Below are positions 3 through 22,477 of a stretch of 23,702 bases of DNA, piece by piece (the stretch's first letter is position 1; every line of letters starts with the position of its first letter). The notes under the pieces were generated by a model. That model was given only the letters and a program-made list of their open reading frames with translations. It was not told the origin of the DNA and did not search any database. The translations under genes and the position numbers were made by a program. This DNA comes from Chlamydiota bacterium (GTDB lineage Bacteria; Chlamydiota; Chlamydiia; Chlamydiales; SM23-39), in NCBI GenBank assembly GCA_050049995.1, contig JASFVE010000030.1, forward strand, positions 1 to 23,702, read 5' to 3'.

Positions 3-158
3 GAAAAAGGAAAAGTAAATGAAGAGCTTATAGCTTTTTTAGCAAAAGAGCTAAAAATAGCTAAGTCGCAAATCGAGATTTTAAAAGGACACACTTCTCG
101 TTATAAAAAATTAGTGCTTAAAGGCCTTTCTAAAGAGGCTTTTACCCATGTCTCTTAA
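3..158 (+). CDS. DUF167/UPF0235 (YggU-like) protein, 3' part (5' end outside window)
   Basis: Frame 3 reads EKGKVNEELIAFLAKELKIAKSQIEILKGHTSRYKKLVLKGLSKEAFTHVS*, matching the DUF167 pattern GKAN.EL..FLA..L...KS.I.I..G.TSR.K. Not in the ORF track. Confidence 0.9.
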   Translation, partial: EKGKVNEELIAFLAKELKIAKSQIEILKGHTSRYKKLVLKGLSKEAFTHVS

Positions 159-192
159 GGAAAGAAAAGCCGAAGCCAGCTTTTCTTTCCTT
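157..192. terminator. Probable bidirectional intrinsic terminator between convergent genes
   Basis: Perfect 14-bp stem aaggaaagaaaagc (157-170) / gcttttctttcctt (179-192) with an 8-nt loop, between the DUF167 stop and the stop of the 200..403 minus ORF. Confidence 0.75.
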
Positions 193-199
193 CTTCAGC

Positions 200-403
200 T
201 TACTGTTTTCTATGCCAAATTAAAAGTCTTTTAAAACTTTGGCATTCTTGAACACAGTCTTTAAATTTATCTTGGGCACATTGATCAGTTTTTTTAACTG
301 ACTCACAAAATTTATCACATGGCATACGTTCTTTCTGATAGTCTTCAAGCATACTATCAACTAAACGATGTGGCGCTGAATTATTATTAGTAGGTGATGA
401 CAT
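200..403 (-). CDS. 67-aa Cys-rich hypothetical protein (twin CX3C), downstream of a TPP riboswitch
   Basis: Strong SD GGAGGA just upstream of the ATG; riboswitch and promoter upstream; terminator downstream. Cys at 29, 33, 42, 50 and 54. Confidence 0.8.
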   Translation of the reverse strand: MSSPTNNNSAPHRLVDSMLEDYQKERMPCDKFCESVKKTDQCAQDKFKDCVQECQSFKRLLIWHRKQ

Positions 404-406
404 AAG

Positions 407-485
407 TCCTCCATAATTAGTTTTATAAAATAGAGGAAAACATATCTAAGATGTTTTCTTTTCTGAGTTCACCAGAAAAGAATAT
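407..485 (-). promoter_or_regulatory. Riboswitch expression platform (anti-aptamer, competing hairpins, anti-SD/SD)
   Basis: CUGGUGAAC (475-467) is complementary to the aptamer 5' arm GUUCACCAG (577-569). Anti-SD UCCUCUAU (437-430) can pair with AUGGAGGA (414-407). Hairpins UUCUUUUCUG/CAGAAAAGAA and GAAAACAU/AUGUUUUC overlap. Confidence 0.7.
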
Positions 486-578
486 TTTTCACTCTCCCTA
501 CGCCAATATTACTTGGATCAGGTTAGTAAGGGTTAAGTACTATGTACTTTTTCAGCTTATTAGCACCCCTGGTGAACG
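486..578 (-). ncRNA. TPP (THI-box) riboswitch aptamer
   Basis: Minus strand reads GUUCACCAGGGGUGC-UAAUAA-GCUGAAA-AAGUAC-AUA-GUACUU-AACCCUUACUAACCUGAUCCAAGUAAUAUUGGCGUAGGGAGAGUGAA. It has GGGGUGC..GCUGA, ACCC, ACCUGAU, P5 CCAA-GUAAUA-UUGG, GCGUAGGGA and P1 UUCAC/GUGAA. Confidence 0.9.
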
Positions 579-584
579 CTAAGC

Positions 585-614
585 AGTTTATGTTTTTTTA
601 TAAAAAAAGTACAA
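585..614 (-). promoter_or_regulatory. Putative sigma70-type promoter for the riboswitch transcript
   Basis: Minus-strand TTGTAC (614-609)-N18-TAAACT (590-585), placing the start site a few nt before the aptamer P1. Confidence 0.5.
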
Positions 615-696: not shown

Positions 697-1092
697 ATGT
701 CTGTAAATTCTGTAAATAATGATAGAGCTATTATTAAGAAAGCTCTAGAAGATGCCTATGCTAATGCATCTAGGCAGATAGATTTTTGTCATGACGTTAG
801 GGAAGGTCATTCCATAACAAGGGCTCAAATAAGAGCAGCATTTTCTGGCTGGCAAAGTAAAGTAACCTGTAGTGGCCATCTTAAATTTTTTCATCCTATA
901 ACTCTACAAAGGGGTGAGGTTATTAATCATGGACCTCTTAAAAAAGAAGTTATAGTTTCAGTTTGTCGAGTTATACAAGATCATTTAAATATTTTAGGTA
1001 ATGATATTTTCGGTTATCGCACTCATAACTTTAAATCTGAACCTGATTATGACAAAGCTGTTGATAGATGGCTTAGTAGAGTAAATAGTTAG
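697..1092 (+). CDS. Hypothetical protein, possible HicA-like (dsRBD-fold) core
   Basis: SD AAAGGAG. The segment GWQSKVTCSGHLKFFHP..INHGPLKKEVI resembles HicA G(F/W)....GSH..(Y/F).HP..V..H. The CDS is likely; the family call is weak. Confidence 0.6.
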   Translation: MSVNSVNNDRAIIKKALEDAYANASRQIDFCHDVREGHSITRAQIRAAFSGWQSKVTCSGHLKFFHPITLQRGEVINHGPLKKEVIVSVCRVIQDHLNILGNDIFGYRTHNFKSEPDYDKAVDRWLSRVNS

Positions 1093-2097: not shown

Positions 2098-3720
2098 ATG
2101 TGTATTCGACTATATTTACTATTTTTTATTTTCCTTCATCTTTTCGTATATGCTGAAGATATCTGGTTAGAAGAATTGCATGGTTTGACTTTTATACAAA
2201 AAGTTGATGAAGAAAATCCTCTTGATGCAAAGAACTTTTCCTACGGAATTAATATTGTTGATGTATATGTCCCTGATGAGAAGGCTTTCATTAAAGAAAT
2301 GCAGCAGTTTTTAGGGTTGCCCTTAAAACCTTCTTTAATAAAAGAAATAAAACAGCAAGCAGTTCAATACTACCAAAAAAGAGGGTTCTTACTCGTAGGT
2401 GTTCTAGTCCCTGTTGAGCAAGATATCTCAAATGGTGTCTTAAAAATTATCATTAATATTGGTCGTTTAGGGAAGATAAAAGCTAGTGGAGCTAAGTATT
2501 TTTCCAATGAAAAACTGGCATCTGAGCTGCGGGTGAAAGAAGGTGAGTATCTTCAAAAAGATGTAATCTTGTCAGATTTAAATTGGATGAATCAAAATCC
2601 ATTTAGGGCAAGTGATGTTGTTTTAGAACAAGGAGAGAATTTTGGTGAAACCGATCTTACTCTCTCCACTATTGATCGTTGGCCAGTAAGGTTTTTTGGG
2701 GGTTATGAAAATACAGGTAATCAGATAGCTGGAAGTTCTCGTTTTCTAACCGGAATCAATTTAGGAAATCTTTTTAAAATTGGCCATCAATTAAATTATC
2801 TATTCAGGTTTTCTCCTCAATTTAATAAGTGGTGGGGGCATTCAGGCAGTTATATTGCACCTTTGCCATGGAGACACATTTTTGAAGCCTATGGATTTTA
2901 TACTCATGCAAAGCCAGATGTAGATGTAGGATTCGATTCCAATGGGAAAAGCTGGCAGTTAGCTGGAAGGTATAAAATTCCTTTTCAAACAGGTTTTTTG
3001 AACAATCTTATTTTTATCGGTTATGAATTTCAAAGATCGAATAACTTTCTGACTTTTGGAGACACTTTATTATTTGATAGATACATAGATATTTCTCAGT
3101 TTTTAGTCGGTTATGAAGCCTTTATTGAGTATAAAGCTGGTAAAACGAAAATAGGAGCAGAAATATTCCTTAGCCCAGGGAATATGACTGCCTTTAATAA
3201 TGATCAAAGTTTTGCCCAAGAACAAGAAGGAGCCAAGAGTAATTATATTTTTGGAAGAACCCGGTTAGAGCAGTCAGTATACATGCCTAAAGGTGCTTTT
3301 TGGTGGTTGGATATTTTATTTCAACAGGCTAGTGGAAAGCTTCTTCCAACAGAACAGTTTTCTTTAGGAGGTTTTTATACGATAAGAGGTTACGATGAGA
3401 ATGAAGTGATTGGCGATAATGGCATACTTATTAAAAATGAACTTCACTTTCCAGTAATTCGTCTTCCTCCTAAAAAACGATATCATCAAATTCAATTTCT
3501 TGGGTTTATAGATTATGGCTGGACCTATGATGTAAACCAAAATATTTTAAGCAAAGATGTGGCCACCCTTGCTTCTGTAGGTCCTGGCGTGAGGTATAAT
3601 TTTGAAAATTATATTTCCTTTCGTTTTGATTACGGATGGCAGTTAAACACTATTAGAAGAGTTGTAGATCCATCTAGCAAAAAGTCGAGAGCACATTTGA
3701 GCCTTATTGTTTCCTATTAA
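2098..3720 (+). CDS. TpsB outer-membrane transporter (ShlB/FhaC/HecB family)
   Basis: Signal peptide; POTRA-like region (YYQKRGFLLVGVLVPVEQDISNGVLKI); loop-6 motif FSLGGFYTIRGY; FIDYG; beta-barrel C-terminus ending in an aromatic residue (LSLIVSY). Confidence 0.93.
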   Translation: MCIRLYLLFFIFLHLFVYAEDIWLEELHGLTFIQKVDEENPLDAKNFSYGINIVDVYVPDEKAFIKEMQQFLGLPLKPSLIKEIKQQAVQYYQKRGFLLVGVLVPVEQDISNGVLKIIINIGRLGKIKASGAKYFSNEKLASELRVKEGEYLQKDVILSDLNWMNQNPFRASDVVLEQGENFGETDLTLSTIDRWPVRFFGGYENTGNQIAGSSRFLTGINLGNLFKIGHQLNYLFRFSPQFNKWWGHSGSYIAPLPWRHIFEAYGFYTHAKPDVDVGFDSNGKSWQLAGRYKIPFQTGFLNNLIFIGYEFQRSNNFLTFGDTLLFDRYIDISQFLVGYEAFIEYKAGKTKIGAEIFLSPGNMTAFNNDQSFAQEQEGAKSNYIFGRTRLEQSVYMPKGAFWWLDILFQQASGKLLPTEQFSLGGFYTIRGYDENEVIGDNGILIKNELHFPVIRLPPKKRYHQIQFLGFIDYGWTYDVNQNILSKDVATLASVGPGVRYNFENYISFRFDYGWQLNTIRRVVDPSSKKSRAHLSLIVSY

Positions 3721-3734
3721 TTAAAAGGGTAATT

Positions 3735-6149
3735 ATGAAGTCATTTCTAGTTTGTTCTGTTTTTTTTCTTTTACAGGCATATGCAGTTCCTAGGGAAGAA
3801 AAAGTTATTTCAGGAAATATTTGCTTTTCAACAACCAACAATAATTTAGAAATACGTCAACAAAGCAAGCAAGCTGTGATTGATTGGAAAGAATTTTCCA
3901 TTAACAAAAATGAACAAGTTTATTTTATCCAGCCTCCTAATAGCGCCATATTAAATCGTGTAACAGGAGCAATGCCATCTAGAATAGATGGCATGCTAAA
4001 AGCAGATGCTGCCCTTTATTTAATGAATGAAAAAGGTCTTATTGTTGGCAAAGAAGGGGTCGTTGAAGCTAAAAGTTTTTTTATGCTGGGGCAGAAAATA
4101 CAAGAAGAAGATTTTTTGAACCAAACTAGCATGCTTCAAGCAAATTCTGAAGCAGTTATCATCAATCATGGAAAAATCAAAACAACCGGGGGGGATATTT
4201 TTCTTGTAGCTAAAGAAGTTAAAAACTCAGGACAAATAGAAGCAATCAAGGGAAAAGCTTATTTAATTGGAGGATCTGAAGTTTTTTTACAAAAAGAGCT
4301 AGATGAAAACTTTCAAGTTAAGGTGAAAAACTTAGGCTCAGTTGAAAATATGGGGCTCATTAAAGCAGCCCAAGTAGAGATACAAGCAGCAGGAGGAGAT
4401 ATATATAGCTTGGCAATCAATCAAATGGGTGTAATAGAAGCTAATGGTTTTTTAAAAAAAGAAGGGAAAATTATTCTTACTGCAGATACTGGAAACATAA
4501 GTATAGCAGGTAAACTAAAAACAACAACCTTAGAAGAAGGAGGTTTGATAGAAGTTACAGGGCTTGATGAAATACATGTTTTGGAAAATGCGTCTTTGCT
4601 AGCAAATGGAGAAAGTAAAGGGGGAACTATTTTAATAGGGGGAGATTTTCAAGGAAAAAATCCTGCTATAAAAAATGCAAAAAAATTACGCATTGAGCCT
4701 AATGCAACAATACAAGCTAATGCTATAGAAAAAGGTGATGGTGGCAAAGTAATTACCTGGGCTAATGAACAAAATATTTTCAAAGGGAAAATTTCTGCAC
4801 AAGGAGGACGAGTAAAAGGGAATGGGGGTTTTGTTGAAGTATCGTCTCCTAAGAATTTAGTCTTTGCTGGTCATGTATCTACTGTGGCCTTTAATGGAAA
4901 AACCGGAAACCTTCTTTTAGATCCTTCTGATATTGTAATAGGGGATTTTGGAGGGACAAGTACCCCTCCTTATCCAGCAGGTGGTGCGGAAATGTATGAT
5001 CCAGCAGGATCTTCAGGACAGTTGGATGTGTTAGACTTGCAAGCTGCATTAGGATCTACTAATGTTACTGTTTCTACCATAAGTGGAACTGGAGGTGCTG
5101 GAACTGTTACAATTAATAGAGGGTTTTCTTGGAGTTCATCTAATACTTTTTCAGTTACAGCAAATCGAAATATTATTCTGGATGATGTAACGATTACAAA
5201 TACTAATGCTTTAGGAGGCTTTACCGCAGTGGATTTACAAGCAGGGCAAGAAGGGGTGGTCACAGGAAACTTCGATGGTATTTTTTTAAGAAATGCAACA
5301 ATCTCATCCTCTACTGGAAATATAAATTTTGTAGCTCGTGGAGGAACATCCGACAATAATTATGGTATCCACTTGTTTAACAGTACTATTTCATCTACAG
5401 GGTTGGCGTTGAGTCCGGCTACAATTACTCTTAATGGAGTTGGGGGAGCTGGAGTAAATGGGCTGTCAGGGGTAGTGATCGAGTCCAATTCATCCATAAA
5501 TTCAAGGCTAGGAGATATTTCCATTACAGGGAGCGCTAATGGGACAGGCATTTTAAATCATGGAATATGGATTTTTTTTCGATCAGAAGTACTCTCTGAT
5601 GGGGTAGGAGTAAATGCTGCAACCATTTCATTAAATGGCTCTTCCAGTTTTGGAACATCTGATAATTTTGGAGTAAATATTCAGGAAAATTCAACGGTTT
5701 CCTCTGATACAGGTAATTTGAATATTACAGCCACTTCTCAGGGTATAAATAATCACAATGTGGGATTACTTATAAAAAAAAGTGGAAAAATAGCTTCGGT
5801 TGGAACGCTTGCAAGTGCAGCTACCCTTACTATTAATGCAACTTCAGGAACAGGTAGCAATGGGAACAGAGGAATGTTAATAGATTCTAGCTCTTTGATT
5901 GACTCTATTAATGGAAATTTAGATATTACAGCTGAGTCTAGAGGAGTAGGGACATACGGAAATCAGGGGGTAGCCTTAATGAATAATTCCTTAATTAGGT
6001 CCACCGGAATAGGTGTTGATGCTTCGGATATTTCGATATTAGGTACAATGGGAGCAGGTGAATCTGTAGGAACTAGGGCAGATTTCTCTTCTGATATCAC
6101 TTCTGTAGAAGGGATTATCAATATTAACGGAGGATACCAAAAAGAATAA
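3735..6149 (+). CDS. TpsA exoprotein 1, filamentous haemagglutinin N-terminal domain (HMW1-like), 804 aa
   Basis: Signal peptide; IDWKEFSI and ILNRVTG..S.IDG; GGTILIGGDFQG, GGFVEVS and LLLDP motifs; Gly/Ser/Thr/Asn beta-helix repeats; directly follows tpsB. Confidence 0.9.
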   Translation: MKSFLVCSVFFLLQAYAVPREEKVISGNICFSTTNNNLEIRQQSKQAVIDWKEFSINKNEQVYFIQPPNSAILNRVTGAMPSRIDGMLKADAALYLMNEKGLIVGKEGVVEAKSFFMLGQKIQEEDFLNQTSMLQANSEAVIINHGKIKTTGGDIFLVAKEVKNSGQIEAIKGKAYLIGGSEVFLQKELDENFQVKVKNLGSVENMGLIKAAQVEIQAAGGDIYSLAINQMGVIEANGFLKKEGKIILTADTGNISIAGKLKTTTLEEGGLIEVTGLDEIHVLENASLLANGESKGGTILIGGDFQGKNPAIKNAKKLRIEPNATIQANAIEKGDGGKVITWANEQNIFKGKISAQGGRVKGNGGFVEVSSPKNLVFAGHVSTVAFNGKTGNLLLDPSDIVIGDFGGTSTPPYPAGGAEMYDPAGSSGQLDVLDLQAALGSTNVTVSTISGTGGAGTVTINRGFSWSSSNTFSVTANRNIILDDVTITNTNALGGFTAVDLQAGQEGVVTGNFDGIFLRNATISSSTGNINFVARGGTSDNNYGIHLFNSTISSTGLALSPATITLNGVGGAGVNGLSGVVIESNSSINSRLGDISITGSANGTGILNHGIWIFFRSEVLSDGVGVNAATISLNGSSSFGTSDNFGVNIQENSTVSSDTGNLNITATSQGINNHNVGLLIKKSGKIASVGTLASAATLTINATSGTGSNGNRGMLIDSSSLIDSINGNLDITAESRGVGTYGNQGVALMNNSLIRSTGIGVDASDISILGTMGAGESVGTRADFSSDITSVEGIININGGYQKE

Positions 6150-9100
6150 TGGTTCGTACTCTGTGCATTAGCCTTTTCTTTTTTCTTCATCTATTTGCCA
6201 ATCCTACAGGAGAGTCTATTGTTAGCGGAAATCTGAATATCAATTCTCATAAGAACCAACTAGATATTCATCAAACATCTAAAAAAGCGATAATTGAATG
6301 GAAAGATTTTTCTATTGAATTAGGTGAGCGTGTAAATATTCACCAAAAGTTCTCTAATGGGGTTATACTTAACAGAGTCATTGGTAATTGCTCTTCAAAA
6401 ATTTTAGGAACGCTAGAAAGTAATGGATTAGTTTATTTAATTAATGAGCAAGGGATATTTATTGGTAAACAAGGGAAAGTTCAAACAAAAGGTTTTTTAG
6501 CTTCCTGTTTAAGTCTTAAAAATGAACCTTTTTTACAAGGTAAAACCCTATTTTTTGAAGGAGATAAACAGGGTGAGCTTGTTAATTTGGGCTCAATTAA
6601 AACTTCAACGAAACATATTTTCCTTCTAGCTCAGGTAGTTAAAAATGAGGGGAAAATACATGCCCAAAAGGGTAACTCTTATTTAATTGGTTCTAACCAA
6701 CTTTATTTAACAGAAGATAATCAAATTTTTGTTAACTCCAAGTCAATTGGAACAGTAGAAAACAGGGGATCTATAAAAGCTGTCGAAGCTCAGTTAGAAG
6801 CAGCTGGTGGTAGCATATATTCCTGCGCTATTAACCAGACAGGTATAGTAGAGGCAAATGGTATTGAAAAGATTAATGGGAAAATCATTTTAAAAGCTCA
6901 TTCAAATTTGACGGATGTCTCTGGATCATTAATTGCTCAATCTCAAGATAAGGGAGGAGCAATACAAGTAACTGGTGGAGATGAAATTCACCTTCAAGAT
7001 ACAGCCAAAGTACTGGCTAATGGAGATCTTGGAGGAGGAGAAGTTTTAATAGGAGGGGACTACCAAGGAAAAAATCCGAGTATTGAAAATACAAAAAAAA
7101 TATGGGTTAACAAAAAAGCTGTAATAAATGCAGATGCTATCATCCAAGGAAACGGAGGTAAAGTTGTTATTTGGGCTGATGAGCAAAACCTTTTTGGTGG
7201 GACTATTTCAGCTAAAGGAGGGAGGATAAAAGGTGATGGAGGTTTTATAGAAGTTTCCGCTAAAGAATACTTATTATACAAAGGCTCGGCGTTCACTAAT
7301 GCATTTAATGGTAAAACAGGAAACTTATTACTAGACCCTTCTGATATTACCATAAGCACTTCAGCTAGTTCTCCTGCATTCCCTACATCGCCAGGTAATT
7401 ACAATCCTACAGGCGCATCGGCTACATTAAATGTTTCTGATCTGGTAAATGTAACTGATGGCTTAGGAAACAATAATGTTACTGTTTCAACTAGTGGAGG
7501 AACAGGAGGGTCGGGAATTGTTACCTTTGCAAATGACGTGACGTGGAGTGCCAATACCACATTAACTGTGCTTGCCGATCAAGCTATCATTGTCAATTCT
7601 GGCGTAAGCTTAAGTAATACAAGTACAGCTAGTAATTTTACTGCCTTTGATTTTAGAGGTAATGAGGCTGGAGGTTCCACAGCTAACTCTATTGGAATAG
7701 ATATTGTAGGGAGTATTTCTACAGTTAATGGAAATATCAATTTAGTAGGACAAGGAGGGACATCTGCTTCCAACTTTGGAGTATACCTGCGCAATACGTC
7801 CACAGGACTTTCTTCTTCTGGCTCAGGTGCCAATGCAGGTACTATTACTATTGATGGGACTGGTGGATCAGGGGCTAGTGATTGTTATGGTGCCTACATT
7901 CAAGGGTCTGGAGACAGAATAACTTCCATAGATGGAAATATTTCAGTTACAGGGGTTGGAGGAGGAGATGGAACTAGTACAGGCAATATAGGCATTTTGA
8001 TGTCAGACGGGGCAGCAGTGCGCTCAACAGGTACTACTACCGATGCTGCTACTATAACATTTGCTGGAACAGGTGGTTCAGGTACTTCTAATAATCATGG
8101 CATAGAAATTACCGGAACTAGCTGCGGTATTAGTTCTAGTGTTGGAAATATATCTCTTACGGGTGATGTGGACACACCTAGTAGTTCTACAAATTATGGG
8201 ATTTATATCAACTCAGCTGGATTTATTGAGTCAACAGGAACAACAAGTGATGCAGCTACTATCACTTTAAATGGTACGGGGGCTGGAACTTCTTCTGGAA
8301 GGGGGATCACTTTTCTGGAAGTATCTAGCTTTACCAGCGTAAATGGTGATATTAGTCTTACAGGAGTTGGAACAGGGGGTGGAACTTCTTCTGATGGAGT
8401 AGTTATGAGAAATACGACTATATCATCTACGGGAACAGGAGCCAGTGCAGCAAATATTACTATAGATGGAACATCCAATGGATCTTCGGGGTCGGGATGT
8501 GAATTTTTCACTAGCTCTGGAGCTATTAGTGTTGCGGGAAATATTAATATTTCAGGGACGGGCGCAGGAGGGGCTGAGCAAGGATTTGATATGACAAGTT
8601 CTAGTGCTTTTGTTGGCAACGGTTCTACGCAAGGAGATATTACTATTATTGCAAATACTATTAATTTAGCAGGAGATGCTCAATCATCTGGCGTTTTGAC
8701 AATTCAACCTGATACTGTAGCTGGAACGATGGGTCTTGGGGATTCTTCTTCTGGTACACTTAACTTAACTAATACTGAACTATCCAACATCCAAAATGGA
8801 TTTAGTGAAATTATTTTTGGCAGAACGGATGGTACTGGAGCTATTGATGTAAGAGCTTTTACTTATACTGATCCAATAACTATTCAAAGTTTAAGTGGAA
8901 CAATTACTATCAATGGAGCGTTAGCTGCAGGAGCTAATGCCATTACTCTTTCTTCAGATAGCATGGCAATAGACAATTCCGTAACTGGTACTAGTACTTT
9001 AACTATACAACCCGGCCAAGCATCTACAACCATTGGTTTGGGTACTGGTGCAACTGGGACGTTAAACTTAACGGATACAGAGTTGGGCAATCTTACCAAC

Positions 9101-11086
9101 GGTTTTTCTTCCATCACTTTTGGATCTACTACGGGAACTGGTGCAGTAGACATGCAAGCTTTTACTTATTCTGATCCCATCATTGTTTATGGTGGAACTA
9201 TTAGTGCAAATGGGATAGTAGCTACAGGAGGTAGTGATAATATAACCTTTAATATTGGTAGTGCAGGAGCAGGGACTCTTAACTTGAATGCTAATGTCAA
9301 TGCCGCGGGCACTTTTACCGTTAATGGAGGCTCAAATAATGACGCCTTTAATATCAATGTCACTAGTCAGACGGCCACACTTATTGGTAATGGAGGAACG
9401 AATACCTTAACAGGACCTAATGCTTCTAACACTTGGGCAATCACATCTGATAATGGAGGAACCTTAAATACAAGCATTGGGTTTTCAGATATGCAAAACT
9501 TAACGGGCAATGCCAATAATGATGCTTTTACTTTCAATGGTGCTTTTCAAATCACAGGAACAATAGATGGCTCGACAGGAACTAACACACTAACCGGACC
9601 CAACGTCAATAACGCTTGGGCTGTCACTTCTACGGACACTGGAAGTATAACACCTACAGGAGCTGGTGGAGCTACCAGCTTTAGTAATATTGGGAATTTA
9701 ACAGGTGGCTCCAGCAATGACTCTTTCGTTTTAAGTGATGGCGTCGGAGTCAGTGGAGCTATAGATGGAACAAGCTCTACGGGCAACGCCCTTAGCTACG
9801 CTGCTTATACCACTAGTGTTTCTGTAAACCTGCAGACAGGAGCTGCCACGAACATAACAGGTGGGGTGAGTAATATTCAGACGTTCACAGGAGGTAGCAA
9901 TACTGACACTATAACTGGAACGAATACCACCAATGCCTGGAGCATTACTGCTGATGACACTAGCAGCTTAAATAATGGAAGCACAACTTTTACGTTAAAT
10001 AGTTTTGAAAATCTTACAGGTGGTTCGGGAAATGATACGTTTACGTTTAATGGAGCCTTTCAAATCACAGGAACAATAGATGGCTCGATTGGATCTAATA
10101 CTATAAATGGTCCTAATGTGAATAACGTTTGGGCTGTTACCAGTCAAACTACAGGAACTCTCACGCCAACAGGTGCCAGTGGCTCTACTAGTTACTCGAA
10201 TATAGGTTCATTGGTAGGTAACGCAAGTGATGATACGTTTAATCTTTCTGCCGATATTACCCTGCCAAGCATAACGGCAGGTGCTGGAACCGATACTTTA
10301 AATTTCCTAGCAGGTTGGACAATACCTGCTACCATAAATTTAAATACAGTTACCGGCTTTGAAGTGATCAATGGACCTCCCGGTCTTGATAATACGCTTG
10401 TGGGTAATAACTTAAGTAATACTTGGACCATTACAGCTGCCGATGCGGGGACTTTAGAAAATACAGACTATCCATCACCTGCTGTTTTTACCTTTAGTAA
10501 TTTTCCTAATATTACAGGAGGCTCAGCTAATGATTCTTTTGACTTTACCGCCGGCTTTACTGTAACAAGCATCGACGGTTCTACTGGAAGTAATGCTTTG
10601 CTAGCGCCTAATACAGCAAACACTTGGAATATAACAGATGATAATACCGGAACTGTCGCTAGTATCTCCTTTGCCAATATTACAGACTTAACAGGTGGGA
10701 CCTTAAGTGACACGTTTGTATTTGCCAACCAAAAAGGAGTCTCGGGACAAGTAGATGGAGGCGCCCCGGCGAGCTTAAATACGTTGGATTACTCTGCCTT
10801 TTCACCAGCAGCTACAGTTATTGAGCTCACTGCTACATCAGGAACTGCTTCCAATTTAGGTAGTGGCTACATAAATATTGGAAATATCATTGGCAACATT
10901 ACTTCAGGCTCTGTCATCACAGCAGCAATACAACAAAAATCTAACTTCTATTTTGCCAATTTACAGCTTCTTTTTACGGAGCTTTATCATTGCAGGCTTA
11001 TCCCTGAATTTTTCTATAGGCAGTTTGAAAAGATGAAGTATGTTCAAGAGCCTCAAGAAAAAATTCAAATAAAAAGAAAAAGATAA
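6149..11086 (+). CDS. TpsA exoprotein 2, filamentous haemagglutinin/HMW1-like adhesin, 1645 aa
   Basis: Same TPS-domain motifs as TpsA1; long beta-helix repeats; NTW.IT/F.N..NLTGG..D.F repeats; start overlaps the TpsA1 stop (TAATG). Confidence 0.9.
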   Translation: MVRTLCISLFFFLHLFANPTGESIVSGNLNINSHKNQLDIHQTSKKAIIEWKDFSIELGERVNIHQKFSNGVILNRVIGNCSSKILGTLESNGLVYLINEQGIFIGKQGKVQTKGFLASCLSLKNEPFLQGKTLFFEGDKQGELVNLGSIKTSTKHIFLLAQVVKNEGKIHAQKGNSYLIGSNQLYLTEDNQIFVNSKSIGTVENRGSIKAVEAQLEAAGGSIYSCAINQTGIVEANGIEKINGKIILKAHSNLTDVSGSLIAQSQDKGGAIQVTGGDEIHLQDTAKVLANGDLGGGEVLIGGDYQGKNPSIENTKKIWVNKKAVINADAIIQGNGGKVVIWADEQNLFGGTISAKGGRIKGDGGFIEVSAKEYLLYKGSAFTNAFNGKTGNLLLDPSDITISTSASSPAFPTSPGNYNPTGASATLNVSDLVNVTDGLGNNNVTVSTSGGTGGSGIVTFANDVTWSANTTLTVLADQAIIVNSGVSLSNTSTASNFTAFDFRGNEAGGSTANSIGIDIVGSISTVNGNINLVGQGGTSASNFGVYLRNTSTGLSSSGSGANAGTITIDGTGGSGASDCYGAYIQGSGDRITSIDGNISVTGVGGGDGTSTGNIGILMSDGAAVRSTGTTTDAATITFAGTGGSGTSNNHGIEITGTSCGISSSVGNISLTGDVDTPSSSTNYGIYINSAGFIESTGTTSDAATITLNGTGAGTSSGRGITFLEVSSFTSVNGDISLTGVGTGGGTSSDGVVMRNTTISSTGTGASAANITIDGTSNGSSGSGCEFFTSSGAISVAGNINISGTGAGGAEQGFDMTSSSAFVGNGSTQGDITIIANTINLAGDAQSSGVLTIQPDTVAGTMGLGDSSSGTLNLTNTELSNIQNGFSEIIFGRTDGTGAIDVRAFTYTDPITIQSLSGTITINGALAAGANAITLSSDSMAIDNSVTGTSTLTIQPGQASTTIGLGTGATGTLNLTDTELGNLTNGFSSITFGSTTGTGAVDMQAFTYSDPIIVYGGTISANGIVATGGSDNITFNIGSAGAGTLNLNANVNAAGTFTVNGGSNNDAFNINVTSQTATLIGNGGTNTLTGPNASNTWAITSDNGGTLNTSIGFSDMQNLTGNANNDAFTFNGAFQITGTIDGSTGTNTLTGPNVNNAWAVTSTDTGSITPTGAGGATSFSNIGNLTGGSSNDSFVLSDGVGVSGAIDGTSSTGNALSYAAYTTSVSVNLQTGAATNITGGVSNIQTFTGGSNTDTITGTNTTNAWSITADDTSSLNNGSTTFTLNSFENLTGGSGNDTFTFNGAFQITGTIDGSIGSNTINGPNVNNVWAVTSQTTGTLTPTGASGSTSYSNIGSLVGNASDDTFNLSADITLPSITAGAGTDTLNFLAGWTIPATINLNTVTGFEVINGPPGLDNTLVGNNLSNTWTITAADAGTLENTDYPSPAVFTFSNFPNITGGSANDSFDFTAGFTVTSIDGSTGSNALLAPNTANTWNITDDNTGTVASISFANITDLTGGTLSDTFVFANQKGVSGQVDGGAPASLNTLDYSAFSPAATVIELTATSGTASNLGSGYINIGNIIGNITSGSVITAAIQQKSNFYFANLQLLFTELYHCRLIPEFFYRQFEKMKYVQEPQEKIQIKRKR
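9545..10088 (+). repeat. Intragenic direct repeat in TpsA2 (31-bp identical core, 513-bp offset)
   Basis: tttcaaatcacaggaacaatagatggctcga at 9545-9575 and 10058-10088; both copies lie in FTFNGAFQITGTIDGS.G.NT..GPNVNN.WAVTS. Confidence 0.9.
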
Positions 11087-20719: not shown

Positions 20720-22477
20720 GTGTTTTATATGACATCAATGACATCAATAGATTCTTATCAAAGAATAGAGACACTTCCCATTACAAACTCTCCTTCAGCT
20801 GCTACTATAAATAAAAATAAAGCTTTTCTTATTGAAGGGGAGAGTCTCGGGGAGTCAATGCATTTTCCTGAACTCAGTTTAGCTAAAAAACTTGCAACAG
20901 AAAACGGAATAGAAGCTTTTGACTGTATTCAAAGCTTCGATACATTTCATGTTACAAGTTTTTTTGAGTCTCAAAGTGTAAGAGATCATAAGAAAATTGC
21001 TATATTTATTATTAAACTGTTCTCTGGAGAAAGTTCTATTTCTACAATTGTCGAAGAAGTTATAGAACCTGCTTTGCATGAGTTGGTCTCAAAAGGGGTT
21101 TACCGTGAAATGCCTGAATGGGTAACCACTTTAAAAAACGATTTTGCTCAATCTGTACAAGAATTGCGCGATTGTTATTTAAGTGAACAAGAGTGGGAAA
21201 AAGATTTTGATTCATTACATAGTTCTATGCTTGATTTATCTAATCAAATTTCTGCAAAAAGTTTTTTTTCTTACTTACAAGATCATCCTGAAATAGAGGA
21301 AGTTTATGGTATTCTAGGTCTTAATCACATTGATTTTCTAGATAAACATGCCAAGCAGGTAGATCGAACTCCTAAAGAAAATCATTTGGAGATTGTGTTT
21401 TTAAACAGAATAATTATTGTTCATTTGTTTGGTGGTACACATAGTGACGTAAGTCATTTTGATGCCATGGCTAGTTTTGCATCGCAACAAGGGCTGATTG
21501 TTCCTGAAAGAGAATCTAATAAAAAAGAACTATTAAAATTGCTGATAAGTCCTTCTTATTTAAGAGAGAAGAGTCGGATGCTAGAAGATTCTTTAGAAAT
21601 CCCAACCTTGAAATCAACAGAAGAGAGGCTGCAAAAAGCAGAGCAGAAGTTTGACTACTGGATGAAAGTATATAATCATTCTGAAAACATGACTCATGCA
21701 GAAAAACTACTTCAATGGCTTGATTATGATGAAGGTGGAAAGTTAGTTGCAAATTATGATGAATTTACAGAGTTGGCTAAAAGATTGAATCAAATAGGTT
21801 ATGAAATTGAAGAAATGCCTTCTCTAGAACAATTTGATGAGGTCATGAAAAACTATGGTGTGAATCAAGAGCACCAGCAGAGAATATTTGAAGGCTTATT
21901 TGGAAAACTAAATGCTCCAGTATCATCTACGGAAATCACAACCCCAAAATCATTATCGGATAATAAACTAGAAGTAACAGCGCAAGTATTTGATAGCTGG
22001 ATGAAAAGAGATTCACATACTAAAGCTGATGGAGAAGAGCTTCTTTTCTGGCTTTATAATGATTGTGGTGGAGATTTAGTTGAAAATTATGAAGAGTTTA
22101 CAGAACTGGCTAAAAGATTGAACCAAATGGGGTATAAAATCGACGAAGTTCCTTCTCAAGAGCATTTTGATGCTGCTAAGAGAGGGGAGAGTTTGCCTAC
22201 TATTCAAAAAACTCCCAAATTATCAGCAGAGGAAAGACTACAAAGAGCAGAGCAGAAGTTTGACTACTGGATGAAAAAATATAAGCATACTGAATCTAAT
22301 GAAGAAGAACTACTTCAATGGCTTTATTATGATAGCGGTAGAAAGTTAGTTGAAAATTATGATGAATTTACAGAGTTGGCTAAAAGATTGAAGCAAATGG
22401 GATATGAAATCGAAGAAGTTCCTTCTCAAGGGCGGTTTGATGTTGCTAAGAAAAAATTTTTAGAAGAGATGATTTAA
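20720..22477 (+). CDS. Hypothetical acidic protein with three C-terminal ~80-aa repeats; start probably ATG 20729
   Basis: Long open frame; three copies of FD.WMK..E.LL.WL..D.G..LV.NY.EFTELAKRL.Q.GY.I.E.PS...FD. Confidence 0.85.
   Translation: MFYMTSMTSIDSYQRIETLPITNSPSAATINKNKAFLIEGESLGESMHFPELSLAKKLATENGIEAFDCIQSFDTFHVTSFFESQSVRDHKKIAIFIIKLFSGESSISTIVEEVIEPALHELVSKGVYREMPEWVTTLKNDFAQSVQELRDCYLSEQEWEKDFDSLHSSMLDLSNQISAKSFFSYLQDHPEIEEVYGILGLNHIDFLDKHAKQVDRTPKENHLEIVFLNRIIIVHLFGGTHSDVSHFDAMASFASQQGLIVPERESNKKELLKLLISPSYLREKSRMLEDSLEIPTLKSTEERLQKAEQKFDYWMKVYNHSENMTHAEKLLQWLDYDEGGKLVANYDEFTELAKRLNQIGYEIEEMPSLEQFDEVMKNYGVNQEHQQRIFEGLFGKLNAPVSSTEITTPKSLSDNKLEVTAQVFDSWMKRDSHTKADGEELLFWLYNDCGGDLVENYEEFTELAKRLNQMGYKIDEVPSQEHFDAAKRGESLPTIQKTPKLSAEERLQRAEQKFDYWMKKYKHTESNEEELLQWLYYDSGRKLVENYDEFTELAKRLKQMGYEIEEVPSQGRFDVAKKKFLEEMI
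21610..22460 (+). repeat. Three intragenic direct repeats (~21610-21850, ~21945-22183, ~22213-22460)
   Basis: Identical 31-mers at 21637-21667 and 22246-22276; identical 39-mers at 21751-21789 and 22354-22392. Confidence 0.92.

What the first reader, a model, noticed from the sequence alone, without database searches (positions are those of the whole stretch)
200..614. TPP riboswitch with an intact translational switch controls an orphan 67-aa gene, not a thiamine gene
Seen: promoter, THI-box aptamer, a 9-nt anti-aptamer (475-467 vs 577-569), two overlapping hairpins, an 8-bp anti-SD/SD pairing (437-430 vs 414-407), one small ORF, then a terminator. Known: TPP riboswitches almost always precede thiamine synthesis, salvage or transport genes. 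Inference: ligand binding frees the anti-SD and turns translation off, so this soluble Cys-rich microprotein with no transmembrane segment would be made on thiamine starvation. The anti-SD matches this gene's own SD, which argues against a chance juxtaposition. It may be an undescribed thiamine-responsive protein or effector.
Basis: partly seen in the sequence, partly recalled or inferred. Interest (0 to 1): 0.85.

Follow-up and report, generated by a model that had tools for sequence, protein, structure and literature searches.

The report
Thiamine-switched chlamydial disulfide microprotein family
A genuine vitamin-B1-sensing RNA switch in uncultured, host-dependent chlamydiae controls an undescribed family of tiny cysteine-stapled proteins that look built for export into the host cell, which may be how these bacteria respond when they run short of a vitamin they cannot make.

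Summary
The TPP riboswitch is real (RF00059, 64.1 bits), and the quoted pairings are in place. The ORF is neither an orphan nor a remnant. It belongs to an unannotated family of 65-105 aa proteins in environmental Chlamydiae: 26 distinct intact copies, all behind a TPP switch or its remnant. Five of 6 weak protein-only hits had the switch. dN/dS is 0.22-0.27. Promoter and OFF-state pairings are conserved; the OFF state covaries. In the 98%-complete genome I found no thiamine synthesis or kinase gene. It has TPP enzymes and a second switch on an MFS carrier, which follows the small gene directly in 3 of 25 relatives. The cysteines form a nested ladder (44 of 48 mirrored). N-termini are Ser/Thr/Pro/Asn-rich with no signal peptide. 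Best guess (0.45): a starvation-induced, type-III-exported disulfide hairpin that improves TPP supply from the host. Export, target and TPP response are untested. The Mia40 signal is absent. The scan noted an analogous switch-plus-small-Cys-protein case on other DNA (e1-2886054); sequence look-ups found no notes on this family.

The parts
609..614 (-). -35 box of a sigma66/sigma70-type promoter
   Evidence: TTG at this offset in 20 of 25 family leaders; below the threshold of the consensus scan
585..590 (-). -10 box
   Evidence: TAnnnT at this offset in 21 of 25 leaders
477..580 (-). TPP riboswitch aptamer (THI box); P1 = 576-572 with 492-488
   Evidence: RF00059 64.1 bits, E 1e-10
569..577 (-). 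5' P1 strand, target of the anti-aptamer
   Evidence: 98.5% of cells paired in 15 leaders
467..475 (-). anti-aptamer (anti-P1), 9 nt
   Evidence: exact complement of 577-569; 6 of 9 pairs invariant, one double change in 15 leaders
456..482 (-). hairpin A (OFF state): traps the anti-aptamer and the anti-anti-SD
   Evidence: 95% of cells paired, 2 pairs with double changes
436..458 (-). hairpin B (ON state): anti-anti-SD 458-451 pairs with 443-436
430..437 (-). anti-SD
   Evidence: pairs with 414-407; 93% of cells paired, 2 pairs with double changes
407..412 (-). Shine-Dalgarno GGAGGA
200..403 (-). 67-aa microprotein: Ser/Pro/Asn-rich N-terminus, helices 10-26, 29-36, 44-66, twin CX3C (C29/C33, C50/C54), extra C42, C-terminal WHR motif
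157..192 (-). 16-bp hairpin with A- and U-tracts, probable bidirectional terminator shared with the convergent gene
   Evidence: a hairpin of -12 kcal/mol or better follows the stop in 23 of 26 members (no shuffle control); not flagged
3..158 (+). 3' end of a convergent yggU/DUF167 gene (not part of the unit)
   Evidence: PF02594 E 6e-13

Best explanation
A self-contained cassette (promoter, TPP riboswitch, one small gene, terminator) in an obligately host-dependent chlamydia that appears to need ready-made TPP. SHOWN by computation: a real aptamer, a conserved three-layer translational platform, a real protein-coding family and a lack of detectable thiamine synthesis. INFERRED, about 0.9: with TPP bound, P1 forms, hairpin A traps the anti-anti-SD and the anti-SD covers the SD, so the gene is OFF; without TPP the anti-aptamer breaks P1 and hairpin B frees the SD. 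INFERRED, about 0.65: the product is a helical hairpin stapled by nested disulfides (C33-C50, C29-C54). INFERRED, about 0.55: it leaves the cell through the type III secretion system by its N-terminus. Overall mechanism, 0.45: it is a TPP-starvation effector that acts in the inclusion or host cell to raise the TPP available to the co-regulated MFS importer. The host target is unknown. A small-Tim/Mia40 mimic that diverts mitochondrial TPP import is one sub-case (about 0.1).
For: Switch-gene linkage: 5 of 6 protein-only hits in 301 genomes have RF00059 directly upstream. Of 23 distinct switch-only pattern hits, 19 have an intact family ORF and 2 a stop-broken one. Six more were found through HMM or RF00059 surveys. 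Coding: dN/dS 0.27, 0.22, 0.26, against 0.09 for the MFS, 0.08 for a HAD and 0.02 for carbonic anhydrase in the closest pair. Auxotrophy: no tblastn hit for ThiC, D, O, M, E or TPK; no PF02581 or PF04263; the only ThiL-like hit reads as PurM (my reading of the sequence); 4 E1-dehydrogenase matches and a transketolase are present. The genome's other TPP switch leads an MFS carrier, and that carrier follows the small gene within about 1-45 nt in L041, L049 and L052. Disulfide ladder: 44 of 48 extra core Cys have a mirror partner, against a random mean of 9 and a maximum of 25 in 5000 draws. Export: N-terminal S/T/P/N fraction 0.48 (24 members) against 0.23 in 1375 genome ORFs and 0.23 in 113 small SD-bearing ORFs; Ser at position 2 in 83% against 14% and 11%. 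This matches the published T3S bias (PMC2669295, passages). SctV is present above cut-off. Three more small twin-CX3C ORFs with such N-termini exist in this genome. A review lists host TPK1 as a host factor for chlamydial growth (PMC10301204, passages).
Against: There is no expression, ligand, secretion or interaction data. The N-terminal bias is a home-made composition score, not a trained predictor, and disordered N-termini of cytosolic proteins can look alike; my 7 Inc-like controls scored only at the 76th percentile. Host cytosol is reducing (recalled), so disulfides need an oxidising compartment, and the Mia40 signal is absent here and in 22 of 27 members. The window's SD is predicted about 0% unpaired in both states, with an opening cost of 8.2 kcal/mol even when ON. 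ON-state pairs are conserved but show no significant covariation (136 of 500 shuffles as high). Pattern hits contain the anti-P1 motif by construction. Absence of ThiE in 19 of 19 carriers is not discriminating, since only 5 of 103 family genomes have it over cut-off. TPK is present in 7 of 22 carriers. The ladder anchors were chosen by me, 5 of 26 members were left out, and kin are not independent. Two copies are stop-broken, and the family is rare (14 of 401 genomes, one of them a false hit), so it is dispensable.
Confidence: 0.45

Rival explanations
1. The protein stays with the bacterium as an accessory or regulator of the TPP-regulated MFS importer, or as a small TPP/thiamine-binding scavenger that feeds it.
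For: Tight operon with the MFS in 3 of 25 relatives and a looser link in L035. The same switch subtype drives the MFS directly in L045 and L048. A W/F-H/S-R/K/D C-terminal motif occurs in 13 of 26 members, with semi-conserved aromatics.
Against: The MFS ortholog was found in only 13 of 22 carriers. In the other 9 (83-99% complete) the small gene is the only TPP-switch target found. Many genomes have switch plus MFS without the small gene. Only two residues besides the start Met are invariant, which is poor for a ligand site. There is no signal peptide for the periplasm.
Confidence: 0.2
2. A cytoplasmic starvation or developmental regulator: made when TPP is low, it slows growth, spares TPP by binding a TPP enzyme, or acts at the conversion to the oxidised infectious form. 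Its cysteines serve as a redox switch or metal site.
For: Soluble, no signal peptide. Stand-alone transcription unit in most genomes. Twin CX3C can bind metals, and chlamydial infectious forms are more oxidised (both recalled, no call).
Against: A conserved Cys4 site is lacking: the outer pair is fully absent in 7 of 21 anchored members and the inner pair lies far from it. Median 25% identity to the window protein is low for binding a conserved bacterial enzyme. The T3S-like N-terminus is kept across families.
Confidence: 0.2
3. Small-Tim/Mia40 mimicry (sub-case of the best explanation): the exported protein enters the host mitochondrial intermembrane space and disturbs carrier import, leaving more TPP in the cytosol.
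For: Size, twin CX3C and helix-turn-helix match the described Mia40 substrate design (PMC8061763, passages). Weak zf-Tim10_DDP hits for 2 members (E 0.027 and 0.74) and DUF842 for one (E 0.004), all below cut-off.
Against: The ITS consensus (PMC2806287, passages) is absent in the window protein; it occurs in 5 of 27 members against 1.9 in shuffles, at inconsistent cysteines. Plant alpha-hairpinin/vicilin and TIL families score as well, which points to convergence.
Confidence: 0.1
4. The ORF is a remnant of a deleted thiamine gene, a leader peptide for the downstream carrier, or a chance ORF behind a stranded switch.
For: The leader RNA is far better conserved than the protein (median 75% nt against 25% aa). 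Some loci lack or have broken the ORF (L033, L046, L045, L048, L099).
Against: dN/dS 0.22-0.27 and an in-frame 9-nt indel in the closest pair; the cysteine ladder; no curated family above cut-off; no longer, fused form found (weak evidence); its own terminator-like hairpin.
Confidence: 0.05

Closest known systems
TPP (THI-box) riboswitch, Rfam RF00059, with translational anti-SD control (E. coli thiM type; mechanism recalled)
   Same: Full aptamer above gathering score; anti-aptamer / anti-anti-SD / anti-SD relay with predicted OFF polarity.
   Different: The target is an unannotated microprotein, not a synthesis, salvage or transport gene. The platform occurs in a short form (hairpin A hides the SD itself, 8 of 25) and a long relay form (17 of 25) with the same predicted polarity.
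Chlamydial type III secreted effectors
   Same: Ser/Thr/Pro-rich, hydrophobic-poor N-terminus, no signal peptide, fast divergence, SctV present.
   Different: Secretion untested; very small; riboswitch-controlled. None of the 12 titles and abstract starts listed describes such control.
Mitochondrial small Tims / twin-CX3C Mia40 substrates (PF02953)
   Same: Twin CX3C on a helix-turn-helix of 65-105 aa with nested pairs.
   Different: Pfam scores below cut-off; no ITS in the window protein; 1 to 3 pairs and variable spacing.
Plant alpha-hairpinins / vicilin-buried peptides (PF04702, PDB 6o3q)
   Same: CX3C...CX3C helical hairpin; weak matches (E 0.012 and 1.3).
   Different: Not significant; no signal peptide or precursor; bacterial and riboswitch-controlled.

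Membership tests
TPP riboswitch RF00059 | covariance-model score above gathering threshold over the full model | tested here: met
   64.1 against 54.3 bits, positions 1-105 of 105
TPP riboswitch RF00059 | expression platform mutually exclusive with P1 that reaches the ribosome site | tested here: met
   ddG 4.0 kcal/mol, 0 of 30 shuffles; OFF covariation score reached by 1 of 500 shuffles; equilibrium SD opening stays low
TPP riboswitch RF00059 | binds TPP and changes expression | not testable with these tools
   needs probing or a reporter
TPP riboswitch RF00059 | lies before a known thiamine synthesis, salvage or transport gene | tested here: not met
   first gene has no curated family; a putative carrier follows second in 3 of 25 relatives
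Type III secreted effector | genome encodes a type III secretion system | tested here: met
   SctV, TIGR01399 880 bits against cut-off 692; other components not searched
Type III secreted effector | N-terminal composition bias without a Sec signal | tested here: met
   97th percentile here, family median 97th; home-made score
Type III secreted effector | T3SS-dependent secretion | not testable with these tools
   bench test
Small Tim / zf-Tim10_DDP | twin CX3C on a helical hairpin | tested here: met
   C29/C33 on helix 29-36, C50/C54 on helix 44-66
Small Tim / zf-Tim10_DDP | PF02953 score above cut-off | tested here: not met
   no hit for the window protein; best member 14.5 against 22.3 bits
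Small Tim / zf-Tim10_DDP | ITS signal X-Ar-XX-Hy-Hy-XX-C | tested here: not met
   absent in the window protein; 5 of 27 members
Small Tim / zf-Tim10_DDP | structural match to solved small Tims | tested here: inconclusive
   TIM22-complex chains at Z 3.5-3.6, rmsd 9-10, tied with unrelated rows
Remnant of thi / pnuC / thiT / MFS gene | similarity to such a gene and loss of coding constraint | tested here: not met

The most novel reading that the evidence does not exclude
Environmental chlamydiae use a vitamin riboswitch to switch on an injected, disulfide-stapled microprotein that manipulates the host's thiamine economy on demand. It would be the TPP-regulated member of a wider class of chlamydial twin-CX3C micro-effectors, possibly routed to host mitochondria.
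Probability: 0.4. Interest if true: 0.9.

Novelty: new variant of a known kind. Interest (0 to 1): 0.78.

Why it matters
TPP switches are a standard way to find thiamine genes. This one points to a protein family with no annotation that is the only TPP-switch target found in 9 of 22 carrier genomes, so it names a missing function in how host-dependent bacteria obtain a cofactor they cannot make. If the protein is exported, it would link metabolite sensing by RNA directly to host manipulation. It is short and soluble and can be tested without culturing the organism. The survey also flags a candidate TPP carrier (the MFS) and shows a riboswitch platform in two architectures of the same polarity.

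Tried and rejected
Family searches: Pfam gave only sub-threshold hits; NCBIfam none; PHROGs 2 single-member weak hits among 22; PDB sequences E 0.9 and 1.3 only; ESM Atlas one low-score unnamed cluster and one blank. phmmer over 1.84 billion representatives gave 4 long repetitive Cys-rich proteins, rejected. Fold searches of both models gave no clear match: best Z 5.2 and 7.5, within background for helical models; Foldseek none at E<=0.001. This neither shows nor excludes a new fold. No longer or fused form among 3880 candidates (weak). False or weak HMM hits rejected: L026 (stops, no switch), L065 (opposite strand of a long gene, no switch), L142-L144. No RNA holder listed for the region, so expression is open. 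Viral contigs remain unsearched, and the MFS-microprotein complex remains unpredicted. The C63 twin-CX3C ORF is not detectably homologous (probability 0.8%); one C87 ORF had no relatives in 249 other genomes scored. Literature (10 searches): no listed title or abstract start describes this family or a chlamydial TPP riboswitch; 'environmental chlamydiae' + 'riboswitch' gave 0 papers; PMC4652624 has 0 occurrences of riboswitch, thiamin or TPP in its main text. The library lacks most subscription papers and I read no supplements, where riboswitch catalogues could list these loci.

Full report
OBSERVATION. Rfam finds one RNA family in the window: TPP at 477-580 on the minus strand, 64.1 bits, E 1e-10. 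The promoter misses the consensus scan, but its two boxes recur at the same offsets in 20 and 21 of 25 related leaders.

ORGANISM AND NEED FOR TPP. The genome is 1.88 Mb, 98% complete, 35% GC. Of 14 genome records sharing the switch subtype, 11 are titled as chlamydiae and 3 as uncultured bacteria; one has an 88% identical ORF and the same upstream neighbours. Queries for ThiC, ThiD, ThiO, ThiM, ThiE and TPK taken from related loci found nothing by tblastn (names are my reading of those sequences). PF02581 and PF04263 were absent, and the one ThiL-like hit (39.8 against 184 bits) reads as PurM. Four E1-dehydrogenase matches and a transketolase are present. The only other TPP switch leads a 405-aa MFS carrier. 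Inference: the organism imports intact TPP from its host.

THE ORF IS A FAMILY BOUND TO THE SWITCH. Protein first: 6 weak hits in 6 other families among 301 genomes; 5 of 6 have RF00059 directly upstream, and the sixth has stops and none. RNA first: a pattern for the switch alone gave 14 genome and 11 metagenome loci, 23 distinct. Of these, 19 carry an intact small Cys ORF, 2 a stop-broken one (L033, L046) and 2 lead to the MFS without it (L045, L048). HMM searches hit 14 of 401 and 13 of 400 genomes, mostly training members. New ones were L062 (switch with an insertion, 43 bits) and L067; L065 and L142-L144 were rejected, and L139 looks like a stop-broken copy without a switch. An RF00059 survey of 103 family genomes (38 with a match) added L074, L086, L096 and L097, the last two with degenerate aptamers. 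Total: 26 distinct intact members including the window's. I found no intact clear member without a switch. Membership of the most divergent ones (L039, L097, L049) rests partly on context. dN/dS is 0.27, 0.22 and 0.26 in the three pairs where it could be computed, of 10 tried. The neighbouring 131-aa ORF gave 0.36, and the MFS, HAD and carbonic anhydrase 0.09, 0.08 and 0.02. Leader identity (median 75%) far exceeds protein identity (25%).

THE SWITCH. In 15 long-form leaders, ON pairs hold in 98.5% of cells without significant covariation. OFF pairs hold in 94.2%, with 7 double-change cells; 1 of 500 shuffles reached the covariation score, a control that ignores relatedness. Of 29 leaders loaded, 25 could be computed (4 lacked an exact motif; the 25 include 2 broken copies and L045). 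In all 25 the anti-P1 state is favoured without ligand by 1.2-8.4 kcal/mol, and opening the ribosome site costs 3.4-8.3 kcal/mol less in it. Shuffling the platform removed this in 5 of 6 tested (0 of 30 shuffles reached the value; 3 of 30 for L043). Against: the window's SD is predicted paired at equilibrium in both states, so ON expression would be low or depend on hairpin B forming first during transcription (inference). Eight of 25 leaders use a shorter platform; in those whose structure I inspected (L031) hairpin A hides the SD directly.

THE PROTEIN. Besides the start Met, only C33 and C50 are invariant. AlphaFold gives three helices, pLDDT 72, and a long hairpin for a six-cysteine member. 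No coordinates were available, so disulfide geometry was not measured. In 21 of 26 members with clear anchors, 44 of 48 further core cysteines have a mirror-image partner (random mean 9): an outer CX3C pair, an inner pair, both or neither. This fits a disulfide ladder better than a fixed metal site. There is no hydrophobic segment in the window protein. N-termini are rich in Ser/Thr/Pro/Asn (0.48 against 0.23; Ser2 83% against 14%), as described for type III substrates (PMC2669295, passages seen), and SctV is present. Four of the 7 most S/T/P/N-rich among 113 small SD-bearing ORFs of this genome carry twin CX3C, which suggests a recurring design. The three others are not detectably homologous.

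LINK TO UPTAKE. The MFS follows the small gene within about 1-45 nt in L041, L049 and L052 and about 300 nt in L035; a more distant MFS follows in L031; none follows in the other 20 of 25 (one cut short by a contig end). The ortholog occurs in 13 of 22 carriers. In the other 9 the small gene (broken in one) is the only switch target found. So the two are co-regulated but not obligate partners. ThiE is missing from 19 of 19 carriers tested but is rare in the family anyway; TPK is present in 7 of 22.

MECHANISM AND RIVALS. Best (0.45): a TPP-starvation-induced, type-III-exported disulfide hairpin that raises TPP supply from the host. A review names host TPK1 as needed for chlamydial growth (PMC10301204, passages), though it explains this by the host pentose phosphate pathway. 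The small-Tim/Mia40 sub-case (0.1, counted within the 0.45) fits size and motif (PMC8061763, passages) but fails the ITS test (PMC2806287, passages) and the Pfam cut-off. Rivals: carrier accessory or TPP scavenger (0.2), internal starvation or developmental regulator (0.2), remnant (0.05), other (0.1).

NOVELTY. The RNA is a member of a known class with a known kind of platform; the output is an unannotated family. Ten literature searches listed nothing on it; I saw listings and abstract starts, and passages of five papers, no supplements. The scan's notes hold an analogous case in another genome, a 111-aa exported Cys-rich protein behind a TPP switch (e1-2886054; unchecked, homology not tested), and a chlamydial switch with a thiM stub (e1-5289046), a reminder to test the remnant reading. 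Sequence and place look-ups returned nothing.

VERDICT. Observation confirmed; interpretation supported and extended. New variant of a known kind; interest 0.78.

Noticed in passing
G000:C15:17954-19259 (L001:1501-2806): Second TPP switch whose P1 3' strand overlaps the GTG start of an MFS carrier; orthologs behind TPP switches are the commonest target in the family survey. Candidate TPP importer.
   Followed up: partly
L146:1054-1344 and 5682-5963; L145:954-1229: Three more small ORFs in this genome with SD, S/T/P/N-rich N-termini and twin CX3C; no Pfam family above cut-off; one had no relatives in 249 other genomes.
   Followed up: partly
L028:14-223: A second 69-aa twin-CX3C ORF lies just downstream of the family gene, possibly a tandem paralog.
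   Followed up: partly
L135:1501-2823 and L006:1501-2743: A different TPP switch subtype precedes a 221-250 aa protein and a 151-159 aa protein; the three scanned have no Pfam family. Another undescribed TPP target; in L006 the first ORF begins like the MFS.
   Followed up: partly
L068, L078, L082, L085: TPP switch before an 85-aa hydrophobic protein (SemiSWEET/PQ-loop-like, recalled, not scanned) followed by a thiamine-pyrophosphokinase-like gene in one genus.
   Followed up: no
L019:1501-2950: TPP switch before a 453-aa protein similar to this genome's nucleotide-transporter-like genes: possible dedicated TPP translocase (family name recalled).
   Followed up: no
L045:1344-1445: Long-form switch drives a 34-aa unrelated peptide whose stop overlaps the MFS start, suggesting translational coupling after loss of the microprotein gene.
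   Followed up: partly
L139:1470-1720: Stop-broken ORF resembling the family, with no TPP switch nearby.
   Followed up: partly
window 2098-11086 (+): Two-partner secretion locus: ShlB/FhaC-type transporter followed by 804-aa and 1645-aa Gly/Ser/Thr-rich proteins that look like filamentous-haemagglutinin-type passengers (recalled, not scanned).
   Followed up: no
window 697-1092 (+): Divergent 131-aa ORF without Pfam family, dN/dS 0.36 against its closest relative; its start lies about 80 nt from the switch promoter.
   Followed up: no
window 20720-22477 (+): 585-aa protein with an internally repeated C-terminal module and only sub-threshold Pfam hits; effector-like.
   Followed up: no
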